A model generated the notes under the pieces. It was not told the DNA's origin. It worked only from the letters and a program-made list of their open reading frames with translations, and did no database searches. From a virus (taxonomy: Duplodnaviria; Caudoviricetes), in IMG/VR virus record IMGVR_UViG_3300028792_000005, positions 2,897-66,896 of that record: a stretch of DNA of 64,000 nucleotides; one strand, written 5' to 3'. Shown piece by piece: positions 24,667 to 27,961 of the stretch; positions within the stretch are counted from its first letter, which is position 1, and the number at the start of each line of letters is the position of its first letter. A program made the translations under genes and the position numbers.

Positions 24667-25011
24667 ATGACCGAGCCCACACTGAACAACGAGTACATGG
24701 ACACCGGAGCGCTCACTCCCGAGGCCGTTCCGGAGCCCGCCACAACTCCGGAGCCCGTTGAGCCTGCCCAGCAGGACTCCTACGAGGAGCCCGCACCTGT
24801 CGCGCAGCCTCCCATCGAGGCTCCTGGCTCCCCATCGTCGGATGTTGTCGACGCCGAGGCCCTGCCGTCACCTGACGGTTCTGGCCCCACCGAGTCCTCG
24901 CTTCCTGAGGGCGCGGAGATCTTCCCGAACCCTGAGGACGCGGAGCCCAAGCCCCTGTCCCAGGAGCCGGGTAGTGAGTCTGGCCTCCCGAGTGGGGCTC
25001 AGGTCAAGTAG
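24667..25011 (+). CDS. Pro/Glu-rich disordered protein, 114 aa
   Basis: AAGGAG SD; PEP repeats. Confidence 0.75.
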   Translation: MTEPTLNNEYMDTGALTPEAVPEPATTPEPVEPAQQDSYEEPAPVAQPPIEAPGSPSSDVVDAEALPSPDGSGPTESSLPEGAEIFPNPEDAEPKPLSQEPGSESGLPSGAQVK

Positions 25012-25025
25012 CACCACCACAGACG

Positions 25026-25065
25026 AAGGGCCGCTGGCGGTTCACCCCTTGCGCCAGCGGCCCTT
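25026..25065 (+). terminator. Intrinsic terminator
   Basis: AAGGGCCGCTGGCG / CGCCAGCGGCCCTT then T. Confidence 0.78.
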
Positions 25066-25096
25066 TGCTGTCCTATCCCTCTGACATCGGAGTCCG

Positions 25097-25726
25097 ATGC
25101 GTGTACAAGGCAAGCCCGCCGCCCTGGTTGCGATCACCGCAGCCCTGACCCTTGTCGTTGGCGCTCATACGCTGGCGACACGCACGAGTTATCCACAGGC
25201 TTCTCCACAGACTGTGGATGCAGCAACAGTCAGTGAGCCTGACAACACAGTGCGTGAGATGCAGATCATCAAGCGCGCTTCACGAAGCCGTTCGGTGGCC
25301 CCGTCGCACCCCGCGACGCACCCCCCAACTAAAACAACTAAGACTTCGAAGCCACTTGTAGCGCCTCATTCACGCTCAACACAGGCTCCGAAGGCCCGGA
25401 TCGTTCGGAAAGAACACCCGTCTGTTTCACGTGGAACATCTGCCTACGCGTGGGCACACACCACTGACGCTTACAAGGTTGCCAACTGCGAGTCTGGTGA
25501 TCGGTCCTCCTGGGACCACTACAACGGCAACCCACACCTGCGGGACGGCAGATATCACGGCAAGTGGCAGATGGACGCTGACTTCTGGTCGACCTACGGC
25601 GGCAAGCAGTTCGCCAGTGACGCTGCTGACGCCAGCGAGTCGGAACAGGACATCGTGGCCTACCACGGCTACCTCGCTCGCGGGTGGCAGCCCTGGTCCT
25701 GCTCCAGGATCATGGGCGTTCGATAA
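25097..25726 (+). CDS. Secreted resuscitation-promoting-factor-like lytic transglycosylase
   Basis: Signal/TM, low-complexity linker, VANCESG (catalytic E), GKWQMD..FW..YGG, ASESEQ, GWQPWSC. Confidence 0.85.
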   Translation: MRVQGKPAALVAITAALTLVVGAHTLATRTSYPQASPQTVDAATVSEPDNTVREMQIIKRASRSRSVAPSHPATHPPTKTTKTSKPLVAPHSRSTQAPKARIVRKEHPSVSRGTSAYAWAHTTDAYKVANCESGDRSSWDHYNGNPHLRDGRYHGKWQMDADFWSTYGGKQFASDAADASESEQDIVAYHGYLARGWQPWSCSRIMGVR

Positions 25727-25730
25727 AGCC

Positions 25731-25760
25731 TTGTTCGAACCCTGAACGTCCTGCTACTGT
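25731..25760 (+). promoter_or_regulatory. Candidate housekeeping-sigma promoter with extended -10
   Basis: TTGTTC-N18-TACTGT with TG at -15/-14. Confidence 0.5.
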
Positions 25761-25766
25761 TTGGTC

Positions 25767-26138
25767 CAACGACGAGGGGCACCTCGTCGGGAAGTGCCGG
25801 AACCTCCCTACCGTCCAGGCTGGGGGAGAACGGTTGCACGGCTCGCAGAACCTTTCAGGCCGATTCGGTGAGATAGGGCGGTATCTCGGAGACGAGATAC
25901 GCGGCGAGTGGCTTATCGGCCAACGTGTAGATGTCGGGTCACCTAATCGAGAACTCTGGACCCCGGCTTGTGGGAACTCAGTCCCACCTTCCACCCACAA
26001 CCCCGCCTTGGGCCTCGGCCAGCGGGGTTGCGGCGTGTCTGGGGTCATTTTCTCGACACGCCGAACGAACGCTCCATTACCGAACGTGTCGGGCCGAACC
26101 ACTAGGGTGAAAGCACGTAGGGAAGGGACACCTAGTGG
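25767..26138 (+). ncRNA. Highly structured ~370-nt leader or ncRNA of unknown family
   Basis: At least six 6-9 bp helices, a GAGA tetraloop and alternative pairings; no convincing ORF. Confidence 0.55.
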
Positions 26139-26404
26139 CGCGGCAAAGCCTGTACACGTACAAGCGCGATGGCATTCTCCAGGCCATCGAGACGCTTTCC
26201 ACTGCGCATGGCCGTGCGCCTTCGCTGCGTGAGATCGCCGAGGTCGCTGACGTGTCCGTTGCCACGCTGCACTCCTACCTCCGGCGCATGCAGGTAGAGG
26301 GAGTAGTCCAGTGGCAGGAGAAGCACCACCGGTCCCTGCGGGTTATCTCCAACCCGAGTGGTTCCGCGCCGGTCCCATCTGCGCCTTCTCCTTCACAGCC
26401 CTAG
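26135..26404 (+). CDS. LexA-type winged-helix DNA-binding domain without peptidase domain
   Basis: ILQAI....HGRAPSLREIAEVADVSVATLHSYLRRM..EGVV.W....RSLRV. Confidence 0.8.
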   Translation: MARQSLYTYKRDGILQAIETLSTAHGRAPSLREIAEVADVSVATLHSYLRRMQVEGVVQWQEKHHRSLRVISNPSGSAPVPSAPSPSQP

Positions 26405-26820
26405 GTTCACCGAAGCCAAAGGCTCGCGCCCGCACCGTCCGCAACAAGAACACCGGGTTCGTTCAGACCTTCACGCCTGACGCCACCGTCAACTGGGAGC
26501 AGTCGATTGGGTGGCAGGTGAAACAGGCACTCGCCTGGATTCATACGAACCATCCTGGCGAACTGGAGTTGCCGTTCGCTGGGCGGGTGATGGTCGACAT
26601 GCGCTTCAACATGAAACGACCCGCGTCGCTGCCGAAAAAGGTGGAGTACCCGATGAAGGGTGCCGACGTGGACAACCTCGTGAAGTGCGTCCTCGACGGC
26701 CTCCAGAACGTGAACGTGCTGACAGACGACAAGATCGTCACTGACATCTCTGCTCGTAAGAGGTTCGCTGACGCGGAGCACCCAGAGGGCGTAGAGGTGG
26801 AGATCACGGCATGGCTGTAG
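26311..26820 (+). CDS. rusA: RusA-like Holliday junction resolvase
   Basis: GSPKPKARAR, KGADVDNLVKCVLDGL, DDKIV. Confidence 0.88.
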   Translation: MAGEAPPVPAGYLQPEWFRAGPICAFSFTALGSPKPKARARTVRNKNTGFVQTFTPDATVNWEQSIGWQVKQALAWIHTNHPGELELPFAGRVMVDMRFNMKRPASLPKKVEYPMKGADVDNLVKCVLDGLQNVNVLTDDKIVTDISARKRFADAEHPEGVEVEITAWL

Positions 26821-27269
26821 AGCACCGCCGAGAAATCGACGACTATCTGGATGCCTTGCACGCGATCATGTACAGCCGTGACCGCGACGGTCGCTACCTG
26901 TTCGTGAACGCCGAGTTCCTACGGGCGTCTGAGTACACCGAAGCGGAGATCCTGGGGCAGACGAACGAGGAACTCTGGCCGGAGCGTGCGCTGGACTACG
27001 CCAACAACGACCTCGTGGTGTGGACGCAGCAGAAGCCCTTCACTTACCAGGAAACCGGCATAGTGGATGGTCATGAGCGCATCTACTTGGTCTTCAAGTT
27101 CCCGATCTGCAAGAACGAGGCCATGTACGCCTGTGGTGCTCTGGCTGTGGACATCACCGACTCGGTGGAGGAGATGAAAGAGGCGATGGGCCTGGTAGGG
27201 CGTCTGCTCAGCCAACTTGAGCAGTCGCAGAACATGCTGCGCGCCTTGCAGTTCCTGCTCCCACAGTGA
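26811..27269 (+). CDS. Stand-alone PAS-domain protein with C-terminal helix
   Basis: RDRDGRYLFVNAEF...EEILGQT.EELWP...AVDITD. Confidence 0.85.
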   Translation: MAVEHRREIDDYLDALHAIMYSRDRDGRYLFVNAEFLRASEYTEAEILGQTNEELWPERALDYANNDLVVWTQQKPFTYQETGIVDGHERIYLVFKFPICKNEAMYACGALAVDITDSVEEMKEAMGLVGRLLSQLEQSQNMLRALQFLLPQ

Positions 27270-27961
27270 TCATCGTTGGCGCTCCAGTCTGTGAGCGGGA
27301 GTGGATTCTGCGCGACTGGTTCGACGGCTTGGCACATCAGGAGGACTTTCCGCCTGAGGAGATCGAGGTGGTGCTGAACTACGGGCACTCCAAAGATCTG
27401 ACACGCATGTCCATCACTTACGAACAAATGCTGAGCAGATTTCGTAAGGTGACCGTGTTGGAAGATGAACACGACGATCACCTGGGGCACCGCCTGTGGA
27501 CGCTCAGCCGCTATGCCACGATGACACGGCTGCGGAACGACCTGCTTGCCTATGTGCGCCAGGAGAGTCCGGACTTCTATCTGTCATGCGACACCGACAT
27601 GCTTCTTCCACCGCATACGCTGCGCATCTTGTTCGAGCACTTGAACACGTGGGATGGGATAGCCCCGCTGACGTTCATGACCCCGAATGGGGAGCACTTT
27701 CCGAACTGCACGAACCTGAACGGTACGAGACAGGTACCTGAGAAGACCGAGCAGCAGCACGCTGTGTTCGGCACGGTTCTGATGACCGAACGTTTGTATC
27801 GGGGTGCTGACTACGCTCCTCACGGTCTTGGTGAGGACCTCGGGTGGGCGGAAAACTGCCACCGTGCGGGTCTAACGCTCGCCCTCTGCCCCGATGTTCG
27901 GATTAAGCACGTCATGCAGCGTGACGACCTGGAAACCCTCGATGTTCGAGTTGGCTTCTAG
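27266..27961 (+). CDS. GT-A fold (family 2-like) glycosyltransferase
   Basis: IIVGAPV, RLRNDLL, DTD (DxD), GEDLGW. Confidence 0.82.
   Translation: MIIVGAPVCEREWILRDWFDGLAHQEDFPPEEIEVVLNYGHSKDLTRMSITYEQMLSRFRKVTVLEDEHDDHLGHRLWTLSRYATMTRLRNDLLAYVRQESPDFYLSCDTDMLLPPHTLRILFEHLNTWDGIAPLTFMTPNGEHFPNCTNLNGTRQVPEKTEQQHAVFGTVLMTERLYRGADYAPHGLGEDLGWAENCHRAGLTLALCPDVRIKHVMQRDDLETLDVRVGF

What the first reader, a model, noticed from the sequence alone, without database searches (positions are those of the whole stretch)
25731..26138. ~370-nt structured RNA with its own promoter that sequesters the start of the LexA-like gene
After TTGTTC-N18-TACTGT (extended -10) the helices are: CGACGAGG/CCTCGTCG (25770-25789); GTATCTCG-GAGA-CGAGATAC (25881-25900), competing with GAGATA (25870); GTGGGA/TCCCAC (25970-25987); CAACCCCGC/GCGGGGTTG (25998-26030); CGGCGTGTC/GACACGCCG (26031-26063), competing with CGTGTCG (26085); and CCACTAGG/CCTAGTGG (26099-26138). 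The last helix encloses the GGAAGGGA SD and pairs the GTG start at 26135. The mutually exclusive pairings suggest a switch. I could not assign it to a known family, so it is a candidate novel riboswitch/leader or large phage ncRNA controlling the LexA-RusA-PAS-GT operon.
Basis: partly seen in the sequence, partly recalled or inferred. Interest (0 to 1): 0.75.

Follow-up and report, generated by a model that had tools for sequence, protein, structure and literature searches.

The report
manA-like phage RNA gene, not riboswitch
The flagged gap holds a real, intricately folded ~230-base RNA gene of an uncultured soil phage, a distant relative of the known "manA" RNA (recently reported to build RNA-only cages), which most likely acts as a free-standing RNA and not as a switch for the neighbouring LexA-like gene.

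Summary
The 408-nt gap (25727-26134) is composite, not one 370-nt leader. Positions ~25768-25997 (+) are a divergent member of the manA RNA family. The Rfam RF01745 match covers the whole model at 37 bits, E 7e-8, below the 55.2-bit cut-off. Four further members were found in uncultured viral contigs. A five-sequence structural alignment gives 94% paired cells and compensatory changes in 39 of 61 pairs. Three of those members lie inside same-strand phage tRNA arrays. The fourth has a sigma-70 promoter, an intrinsic terminator and a convergent neighbour. In the window the RNA follows the only TTGNNN-N18-TGnTAnnnT motif in 64 kb, and two strong hairpins follow it. A soil metatranscriptome holds a 177-nt contig, 164 nt of which match inside the RNA without a difference; none lies on the flanks. 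More distant relatives that keep the LexA-like gene lack the RNA but keep the last ~80 nt of leader. That leader is conserved in sequence without covariation. The SD/start-sequestering helix is perfect only in this window. Verdict: a stand-alone phage ncRNA gene, a new variant of a known kind; the riboswitch reading is not supported. This scan has already reported manA-like RNAs on other DNA (29 notes), mostly in tRNA arrays.

The parts
25097..25726 (+). Upstream gene: exported Rpf/transglycosylase-like protein (209 aa), stop TAA at 25724-25726
   Evidence: Pfam PF06737, E 1.4e-11. GC3 is 0.8-0.9 up to about 25660.
25731..25760 (+). Promoter-like site: TTGTTC (25731-36), 18-nt spacer ending in TGC (extended -10), TACTGT (25755-60). 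The predicted start is near 25767.
   Evidence: Read in the sequence. It is the only match to TTGNNN-N16-19 (incl. TGn)-TAnnnT in the 64-kb window on either strand; 2.65 are expected anywhere by chance. The strict sigma-70 scan did not list it. By analogy, L144 has TTGACT-17-GATAAT at the same distance before its RNA.
25768..25997 (+). manA-like structured RNA, about 230 nt. Helices: P1 25770-77/25782-89; P2 25797-98/25832-33 and 25804-08/25824-28; P3 25836-40/25924-28; P3' 25842-46/25904-08; P3a 25851-56/25872-77 with inner 25859-62/25866-69; P3b 25881-88/25893-900 (GAGA loop); P3c 25909-12/25919-22; P4 25933-38/25962-67; P5 25970-74/25983-87.
   Evidence: Rfam RF01745 hit 25772-25997, 37 bits, E 6.7e-8, model 1-192. 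Model R1, built from L150 alone, hits 25766-26001 at 28.9 bits, E 5.7e-7. Covariation on A9: 94.3% of cells paired and 39/61 pairs changed on both sides. The helix coordinates are my own reading of the sequence, guided by the A9 row printed. In that row the model's register differs from mine at P2-inner, P3, P3', P3b and P3c, and it leaves P3a mostly unaligned. A 177-nt RNA-library contig has 164 nt identical to 25789-25952.
25790..25794 (+). 5' strand of the pseudoknot (GGAAG). It pairs with CUUCC at 25988-25992, directly 3' of hairpin P5. The conserved GUG-N-C-N-GAA follows.
   Evidence: The Rfam alignment marks these as the model's pseudoknot. The third pair is A-U here against G-C in the family consensus, a compensatory difference. 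The strand is invariant in all five subfamily members.
25988..25992 (+). 3' strand of the pseudoknot (CUUCC)
25998..26030 (+). Hairpin A, terminator-like, starting 5 nt after the pseudoknot 3' strand. A 9-bp G+C-rich stem with an inner 3-bp stem and no U tract.
   Evidence: dG -22.4 kcal/mol, z -2.9, 0/200 shuffles as good. The scan did not list it as an intrinsic terminator, because it has no T run. L144 carries a canonical terminator at the same position.
26031..26063 (+). Hairpin B. Its 3' arm (GACACGCCG) is the first part of the leader block that is conserved in relatives; its 5' arm is specific to this window.
   Evidence: dG -21.0, z -5.2. Relatives have no complementary 5' arm.
26054..26134 (+). 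Conserved leader of the LexA-like gene. It holds three CCGAAC repeats (26061, 26080, 26094), a -10-like TAGGGT (26103-08; TAGAGT or TACAGT in relatives) and the SD GGAAGGGA (26121-28). It is probably the gene's own promoter/operator region.
   Evidence: blastn finds conservation only from 26054 onwards; alignment. The consensus fold is weak at -10.6 kcal/mol, with an unfavourable covariation term of +2.6 and one compensatory pair. Folding z is -0.38. The promoter/operator role is inferred.
26099..26138 (+). Window-specific helix CCACTAGG/CCTAGTGG over the SD and GTG start
   Evidence: 8/8 pairs here, 6/8 in L119, 3/8 in L120/L121/L128, with no compensatory changes. z -2.75.
26135..26404 (+). 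LexA/IclR-type winged-helix gene (89 aa, GTG start)
   Evidence: Pfam PF09339 and PF01726. The N-terminus is conserved in 26 homologues: M-x-R-x-S-L-Y, commonly MARQSLY.

Best explanation
Positions ~25768-25997 are a gene for a free-standing, pseudoknotted, multi-helix RNA of the manA family.

Shown: the fold, its family relation and its covariation; its absence from more distant relatives that keep the same LexA-like gene; and the stand-alone or tRNA-array context of the other members.

Inferred:
- It is transcribed from the extended -10 promoter at 25731-25760, starting near 25767, or by read-through from the Rpf-like gene.
- It ends at hairpin A and/or hairpin B.
- It acts in trans as a stable RNA.
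- It may act as a homo-oligomeric particle. A 2026 preprint shows in vitro that canonical manA RNAs form decamers and a 60-mer cage.
- It does not sense a ligand for the LexA-like operon.
- The LexA-like gene is driven and controlled by its own conserved ~80-nt promoter/operator leader.
For: (1) The Rfam manA match covers the full model at E 6.7e-8, with a pseudoknot that is compensatory relative to the consensus.
(2) Four more sub-threshold manA hits of 34-40 bits were found in viral contigs. Model R1, built from L150 only, recovers all of them and the window. Fourteen of the fifteen other viral loci that merely match the 3' pattern used to find them were included as controls; none of these scored at E<=1. 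The one extra weak hit (12.4 bits, E 0.06) was L151, a prokaryote-genome locus that matches the related pattern.
(3) Covariation: 94.3% of cells paired, 39/61 pairs with changes on both sides against 4-12 in slid controls, and 0/500 shuffles reach any of the five measures.
(4) Context: L138, L140 and L150 lie inside same-strand tRNA arrays, with the nearest tRNA within a few nt in L138 and L140 and 25 nt downstream in L150. L144 has TTGACT-17-GATAAT ending about 7 nt before the RNA and a canonical terminator right after it, and it faces a convergent gene.
(5) In the window, the only extended -10 composite motif in 64 kb ends 9 nt before P1. A -22 kcal/mol hairpin starts 5 nt after the pseudoknot 3' strand.
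(6) L119, L120, L121 and L128 have only 100-130 nt between the upstream gene and the LexA-like start, and they share only 26054 onwards. No copy was found in 234 kb of relatives' records, with the window as positive control.
(7) A soil metatranscriptome holds one 177-nt contig at depth 9.5, of which 164 nt are 100% identical to 25789-25952. It holds nothing on 24800-25788 or 25953-27300.
(8) There is no coding signal: no Pfam hit for the ORFs that cross the region and no GC3 periodicity like that of the flanking genes.
(9) Oligomerisation of canonical manA is reported in preprint 10.64898/2026.07.01.735769.
Against: - The score is below Rfam's curated cut-off (37 against 55.2 bits).
- The subfamily alignment has only five sequences and was fitted to the model's structure, which inflates the pair counts.
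- Four members were fished with a 3' motif taken from the window, so P5 and the pseudoknot cannot covary in this set.
- The promoter is a consensus match only. Hairpins A and B have no U tract, so termination is unproven and read-through into the LexA-like gene is possible.
- The RNA evidence is a single assembled contig of unknown strand in one run. Its remaining 13 nt, on the 5' side before 25789, differ from the window.
- Two ~90%-identical DNA contigs (X3, X6) keep the RNA and the LexA-like gene together, so linkage among close kin is not excluded.
- Self-assembly has not been tested for this subfamily, and no biological function is known for any manA RNA.
Confidence: 0.72

Rival explanations
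1. The whole 25770-26138 stretch is one leader or riboswitch. The folded domain senses a ligand or factor and, through hairpins A/B and the CCACTAGG/CCTAGTGG helix, controls termination and/or translation initiation of the LexA-RusA-PAS-GT operon.
For: The RNA lies upstream of and on the same strand as the operon. manA was first proposed as a cis-regulatory riboswitch candidate (PMC2864571). Hairpin A follows the 3' pseudoknot strand directly, as an expression platform would. The SD/start helix is perfect in this window. X3 and X6 keep the RNA and the operon adjacent.
Against: Relatives keep the gene and its leader without the RNA. The SD helix is not conserved and shows no compensatory change. 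Other family members have tRNAs or a convergent gene downstream. The conserved leader has a TAnnnT -10-like box downstream of the helix's 5' arm, so a transcript from it would lack that arm (inference). The leader's consensus fold is weak.
Confidence: 0.12
2. The RNA is a 3'-UTR or processing/stability element of the Rpf-like gene's mRNA, or a boundary insulator between two modules. It would be made only by read-through and would have no trans function.
For: There is no terminator between the Rpf-like stop (25726) and P1 (25770). The element came with a swapped 3' part of the upstream gene: L119 has a different C-terminal domain. Hairpins A and B would end the upstream transcript.
Against: L144 has its own strong promoter, and the tRNA-array members are cut free by tRNA processing. 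A promoter-like motif sits at the right distance in the window. The RNA-library contig covers the RNA and not the Rpf-like gene.
Confidence: 0.1
3. The region is a decaying remnant or a chance similarity with no function.
For: The score is below the Rfam cut-off. The element is absent from more distant relatives.
Against: The match is full-length to two independent models, with nearly all helices intact. The region is kept in ~90%-identical contigs from other habitats. It is present in an RNA library.
Confidence: 0.04

Closest known systems
manA RNA motif (Rfam RF01745; Weinberg et al. 2010, PMC2864571; cryo-EM preprint 10.64898/2026.07.01.735769)
   Same: The order of elements is the same: a 5' hairpin, the pseudoknot 5' strand followed by GUG-N-C-N-GAA, a hairpin, a multi-helix junction, a long hairpin, then a terminal hairpin directly followed by the pseudoknot 3' strand. 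The match covers the full model at E 6.7e-8. Both are carried by phages.
   Different: The score is below the curated cut-off. The RNA is about 40 nt longer, with an extra closing helix P3' and an enlarged P3a where the Rfam alignment shows a 62-nt insert. The pseudoknot is GGAAG/CUUCC instead of GGGAG/CUCCC. The hosts are soil, rhizosphere and groundwater phages, up to 65% G+C among the contigs found, rather than marine cyanophages and Photobacterium. It is organised as its own gene or inside tRNA arrays, not as a 5' UTR.
Enlarged manA-like RNAs in phage tRNA arrays, reported earlier by this scan (e.g. e1-5392558, e1-5362657, e1-5368346)
   Same: They are sub-threshold manA relatives that behave as free-standing RNA genes. 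Three of the four members I found independently also sit in tRNA arrays.
   Different: The window's copy is not near its phage's single tRNA gene (4572-4645, - strand). It sits between protein-coding genes, with a predicted promoter and a terminator-like hairpin. I did not compare its sequence with those earlier RNAs.
ROOL and GOLLD large phage-associated RNAs
   Same: From my own knowledge, not tested here: both are ornate RNAs of phages and prophages, often lie beside tRNA genes, have no known function and have been reported to form multimeric nanocages.
   Different: No Rfam match to either family was found in the window. They are much larger (about 600-800 nt).
Riboswitches with terminator or SD-sequestering expression platforms
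   Same: A structured domain lies upstream of a gene and is followed by a hairpin.
   Different: There is no conserved association with a gene class, no conserved alternative pairing, and the downstream gene keeps its leader without the RNA.

Membership tests
manA RNA (RF01745) | Score at or above Rfam's gathering cut-off (55.2 bits) | tested here: not met
   The window scores 37.0 bits and is not listed in the gathering-threshold scan. The four other members score 34.2-40 bits.
manA RNA (RF01745) | Statistically significant, full-length match to the covariance model | tested here: met
   E 6.7e-8 in a 701-nt search, which is about 6e-6 when scaled to the 64-kb window. Model positions 1-192 of 192 are matched, on the + strand only.
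manA RNA (RF01745) | Pseudoknot between the strand after P1 and the strand directly 3' of the terminal hairpin | tested here: met
   GGAAG (25790-94) pairs with CUUCC (25988-92), 5/5 pairs. One pair is compensatory relative to the family consensus. The pairing is invariant within the subfamily, so there is no internal covariation.
manA RNA (RF01745) | Conserved single-stranded GUG-N-C-N-GAA after the pseudoknot strand | tested here: met
   GUGCCGGAA in the window. The motif is invariant at the specified positions in all five sequences.
manA RNA (RF01745) | Multi-helix architecture supported by covariation | tested here: met
   On A9, 12 helices, 94.3% of cells paired, 39/61 pairs with changes on both sides. 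Slid controls give 4-12, and 0/500 shuffles reach the observed values. Caveats: five sequences, and the alignment was fitted to the model.
manA RNA (RF01745) | Position in the 5' UTR of a regulated gene (original description) | tested here: inconclusive
   It is upstream of the LexA-like gene but separated from it by two hairpins and a conserved leader. Other members are in tRNA arrays or face a convergent gene.
manA RNA (RF01745) | Homo-oligomerisation through loop-loop contacts (preprint) | not testable with these tools
   Only the literature bears on this.
Riboswitch / cis-acting leader of the LexA-like operon | The element is conserved together with the regulated gene, and the alternative pairing over the SD or terminator is conserved | tested here: not met
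   The RNA is absent upstream of the LexA-like gene in L119, L120, L121 and L128, in the more distant relatives L122-L126 and L130 (whose leaders differ), and in 234 kb of their records. The SD helix is 3/8-6/8 paired in relatives.
tRNA / tmRNA / tRNA-like | Cloverleaf, or an acceptor-T arm with a tag reading frame | tested here: not met
   ARAGORN finds only tRNA-Ile at 4572-4645. The 3' hairpin plus pseudoknot strand resembles a T arm plus acceptor strand only superficially: the 3' search pattern also hits true tRNAs.
ROOL / GOLLD / other large ornate RNAs | Match to the Rfam models | tested here: not met
   No such match appears, even at E<=10, in 25600-26300.

The most novel reading that the evidence does not exclude
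Soil phages, probably of high-G+C hosts, express this manA-like RNA as an independent gene, and it self-assembles into an RNA-only multimer or cage during infection. That would extend the in-vitro cage chemistry of marine manA RNAs to a divergent subfamily. It would also give a tractable unit of promoter, RNA and terminator in which the in-vivo role of such particles can be tested.
Probability: 0.3. Interest if true: 0.8.

Novelty: new variant of a known kind. Interest (0 to 1): 0.45.

Why it matters
manA has been listed since 2010 as an orphan riboswitch candidate. A 2026 preprint shows that it builds RNA-only cages in vitro, but its biology is unknown. This window and L144 show a divergent manA subfamily organised as a self-contained gene of promoter, RNA and terminator. 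It occurs in non-marine phage contigs of 44-65% G+C. Three other members lie in tRNA arrays. Together these argue that the family acts in trans rather than as a gene switch. The family also escapes routine annotation, because all five copies score below Rfam's cut-off. For this phage, the result removes a supposed regulatory link between the RNA and the LexA-like operon.

Tried and rejected
The Logan contigs behind the 26 LexA-like homologues, and the ~90%-identical X3/X6 contigs, could therefore not be fetched. Their variants inside the RNA could not be read, because read laying printed only 40 of 352 differences.
- The genome search with RF01745 or with R1 found nothing even in the window's own record, a known positive. 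Its empty answers for relatives carry no weight. I replaced them with cmsearch on fetched records.
- blastn of the region, and of L140 and L150, against 50,697 isolated phages gave no match.
- The 15-mer GGGAAGTGCCGGAAC gave 118 or more chance hits and no true relative.
- The patterns TTGTGGGTA..CCCACCNNCCAC and GCTTAGCGGC..GGAAGTGNCNGAA added no new member.
- The genome-contig scan for the 3' motif gave 8 chance hits in prokaryote genomes and none with the RNA.
- MAFFT alignments A3-A6 were not consistent with the structure, so I used a single-sequence model and CM alignment instead.
- The 13 loose letters in the X17 contig, before 25789, do not come from elsewhere in the window, so they give no sign of a circular junction.
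- The strict sigma-70 and terminator scan lists nothing in 25000-27000.
- The host could not be named. The terminase's best isolated relative is 43% identical and comes from mangrove soil.
- Small-share runs X2 and X4-X16 were not used to name a habitat.
- The idea that the three CCGAAC repeats form an SOS box was considered. The best candidate, CGAAC-N4-GCTC, is imperfect, and I left it as a note.

Full report
**Setting.** The window is most of a 66.9-kb IMG/VR viral contig with about 60% G+C. The best isolated relative of its terminase is only 43% identical. The finding lies in the 408-nt gap between two + strand genes. Upstream is an exported Rpf/transglycosylase-like gene (25097-25726, PF06737). 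Downstream is an 89-aa LexA/IclR-type winged-helix gene (26135-26404), followed by RusA, PAS and a putative glycosyltransferase. The GTG start at 26135 is supported by a conserved N-terminus (M-x-R-x-S-L-Y, commonly MARQSLY) in 26 homologues.

**Observation.** Taken whole, the 424-nt stretch is not exceptional: z is -2.5 on the + strand and -3.3 on the - strand. The gap also lacks the coding signature of its neighbours. GC3 falls from 0.8-0.9 to about 0.6-0.7, and none of the ORFs crossing it has a Pfam hit.

**Identity.** The gathering-threshold Rfam scan lists only a tRNA. A permissive scan of 25600-26300 gives manA RNA (RF01745) at 25772-25997 on the + strand. It scores 37 bits against a cut-off of 55.2, at E 6.7e-8, and matches model positions 1-192 of 192. 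The alignment contains a 62-nt insert and a pseudoknot (GGAAG with CUUCC) that differs from the family consensus by a compensatory pair.

I then scanned IMG/VR with the window's 3' motif (TGTGGG-N5-12-CCCACCTTCCAC). The scan returned true tRNAs, chance hits and four loci that also carry a GGRAGTG motif 185-250 nt upstream. All four are full-length, sub-threshold manA hits: L140 at 40 bits, L144 at 36.7, L138 at 34.5 and L150 at 34.2.

**Structure.** I built a covariance model (R1) from L150 alone, using a hand-derived structure. It finds L144 (54.9 bits), L138 (42.8), L140 (32.2) and the window at 25766-26001 (28.9 bits, E 5.7e-7 in 340 kb). Fourteen of the fifteen other viral loci that share only the 3' pattern were included in that search, and none of them scored at E<=1. 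The one extra weak hit (12.4 bits, E 0.06) was L151, a prokaryote-genome locus from the related pattern.

On the resulting five-sequence alignment, 94.3% of cells form standard pairs. Of 61 pairs, 39 show changes on both sides, against 4-12 when the partners are slid by 1-3 columns. None of 500 shuffles reaches the observed values. Helices P1, P3, P3', P3a and P4 carry most of the covariation. P5 and the pseudoknot are invariant, because the search pattern fixed them.

The alignment was fitted to the model, so these counts lean towards the structure, but the margin is large. The supposed competitor GAGATA is the 3' strand of P3a.

**Context of the family.**
- In L138, L140 and L150 the RNA lies inside a same-strand phage tRNA array. 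In L138 it fills the space between tRNA-Val and tRNA-Met almost to the base, which fixes its ends at P1 and a few nt past the pseudoknot.
- In L144 it is a textbook transcription unit. A TTGACT-17-GATAAT promoter ends about 7 nt before P1. A 15-bp terminator with a T run starts at the last bases of the RNA. The next gene in that direction is convergent, and a hairpin closes the upstream gene.
- The window has the same layout in weaker form. The only TTGNNN-N16-19 (incl. TGn)-TAnnnT composite in 64 kb ends 9 nt before P1. Hairpin A (-22.4 kcal/mol) starts 5 nt after the pseudoknot 3' strand but has no U tract.

**Relation to the LexA-like gene.** Eight viral and five metagenome loci encode relatives of the LexA-like protein. 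In L119, L120, L121 and L128 the upstream gene ends 100-130 nt before the start. DNA similarity to the window begins only at 26054.

That shared ~80-nt block has three CCGAAC repeats and a TAnnnT box (TAGGGT, TAGAGT or TACAGT) about 27 nt before the start codon. It is conserved in sequence without covariation: the consensus fold is -10.6 kcal/mol with an unfavourable covariation term, and folding z-scores are -0.4 to -0.6. I read it as the gene's own promoter/operator. This is an inference.

The helix said to hide the SD and start is 8/8 paired here, 6/8 in L119 and 3/8 in L120/L121/L128, with no compensatory change. With the window as positive control, R1 finds no copy in the records of three relatives (24, 61 and 149 kb) or in the other relatives' loci. 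The RNA together with hairpin A and the 5' arm of hairpin B is therefore a module that this lineage has and its more distant kin lack.

**Other samples.** Contigs about 90% identical from a groundwater run (X3, 18 kb) and a rhizosphere run (X6, 3.9 kb) cross 25414-27300 and 25371-26816 without a joint. Closer relatives therefore keep the module at this site.

One soil metatranscriptome run (X17) holds a single 177-nt contig at depth 9.5, of which 164 nt are identical to 25789-25952. It holds nothing on the rest of the 2.5-kb stretch that was laid. This is suggestive evidence of a stable transcript, not proof. The strand is unknown, and the remaining 13 letters, before 25789, differ from the window.

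**Comparison with what is known.** manA was described as a probable cis-regulatory riboswitch candidate of marine metagenomes, cyanophages and Photobacterium (PMC2864571). [quoted passage not shown] This scan has already logged 29 manA-like findings on other DNA, mostly in phage tRNA arrays. My independent finding of three tRNA-array members agrees with them. What is specific here is a compact (~230 nt) variant from soil-type phage contigs of 44-65% G+C. It occurs both in tRNA arrays and as a promoter-terminator unit between protein-coding genes.

**Verdict.** This is a real structured RNA and a new variant of a known kind. It is most likely a trans-acting, possibly self-assembling, phage ncRNA (confidence about 0.7). 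The reading as a riboswitch or leader for the LexA-like operon is unlikely (about 0.1).

Noticed in passing
L144:13316-13588 (-) and L150:3547-3800 (+): Three separate hairpins of the RNA (P1, P3b, P3c) end in the identical loop UUAGCG closed by a C-G pair. L144's P2 loop contains the complementary CGCUA. The window keeps only a UUAUCG version, in P3c. These may be loop-loop contact sites like the kissing loops reported for manA assemblies.
   Followed up: no
window 26061-26099: Three direct CCGAAC repeats lie in the conserved leader of the LexA-like gene. The first forms CGAAC-N4-GCTC, an imperfect resemblance to the Gram-positive and actinobacterial SOS box (CGAAC-N4-GTTCG). This may be an operator for the LexA-like protein or for host LexA.
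   Followed up: partly
window 25776-25788 against the RNA-run X17 contig: The metatranscriptome contig is identical to the window from 25789 to 25952 but reads TTGGCAGTCCGCT just before that point. It keeps the GGCA loop of P1 with a different 3' strand. It could be a strain with a diverged P1 or an assembly artefact.
   Followed up: partly
L143:854-880 (-) and L143:2024-2356 (-): A 414-kb jumbo-phage contig carries a tmRNA (85 bits) inside a long tRNA array. Between two of its tRNAs lies a ~75-nt tRNA-like element with a perfect 7-bp GTGGAAG/CTTCCAC acceptor stem that the tRNA model did not call.
   Followed up: no
L119:3177-3650 (+): In the closest IMG/VR relative, a 157-aa ORF lies between the LexA-like gene and rusA, overlapping the end of the LexA-like gene. 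By eye its sequence shows an HNH-endonuclease-like motif (HTCD...CVNPEHL...N); no family search was run. In the window, by contrast, rusA overlaps the LexA-like gene by 94 nt. The N-terminal RusA extension is conserved in both, so the overlap in the window looks real.
   Followed up: no
window 25097-25726 against L119:2252-2872: The upstream genes share their signal/TM N-terminus (M-x-x-QGKPAALVAITAALTL) but have different C-terminal muralytic domains. The window has an Rpf-like PF06737 domain; the L119 domain was not run against any family library. This domain swap coincides with the presence or absence of the manA-like RNA module.
   Followed up: partly
window 26816-27272 against the rhizosphere contig of run X6: The ~90%-identical contig skips 455 nt that correspond almost exactly to the PAS-domain gene (26811-27269). 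That gene is therefore dispensable in a close relative.
   Followed up: no
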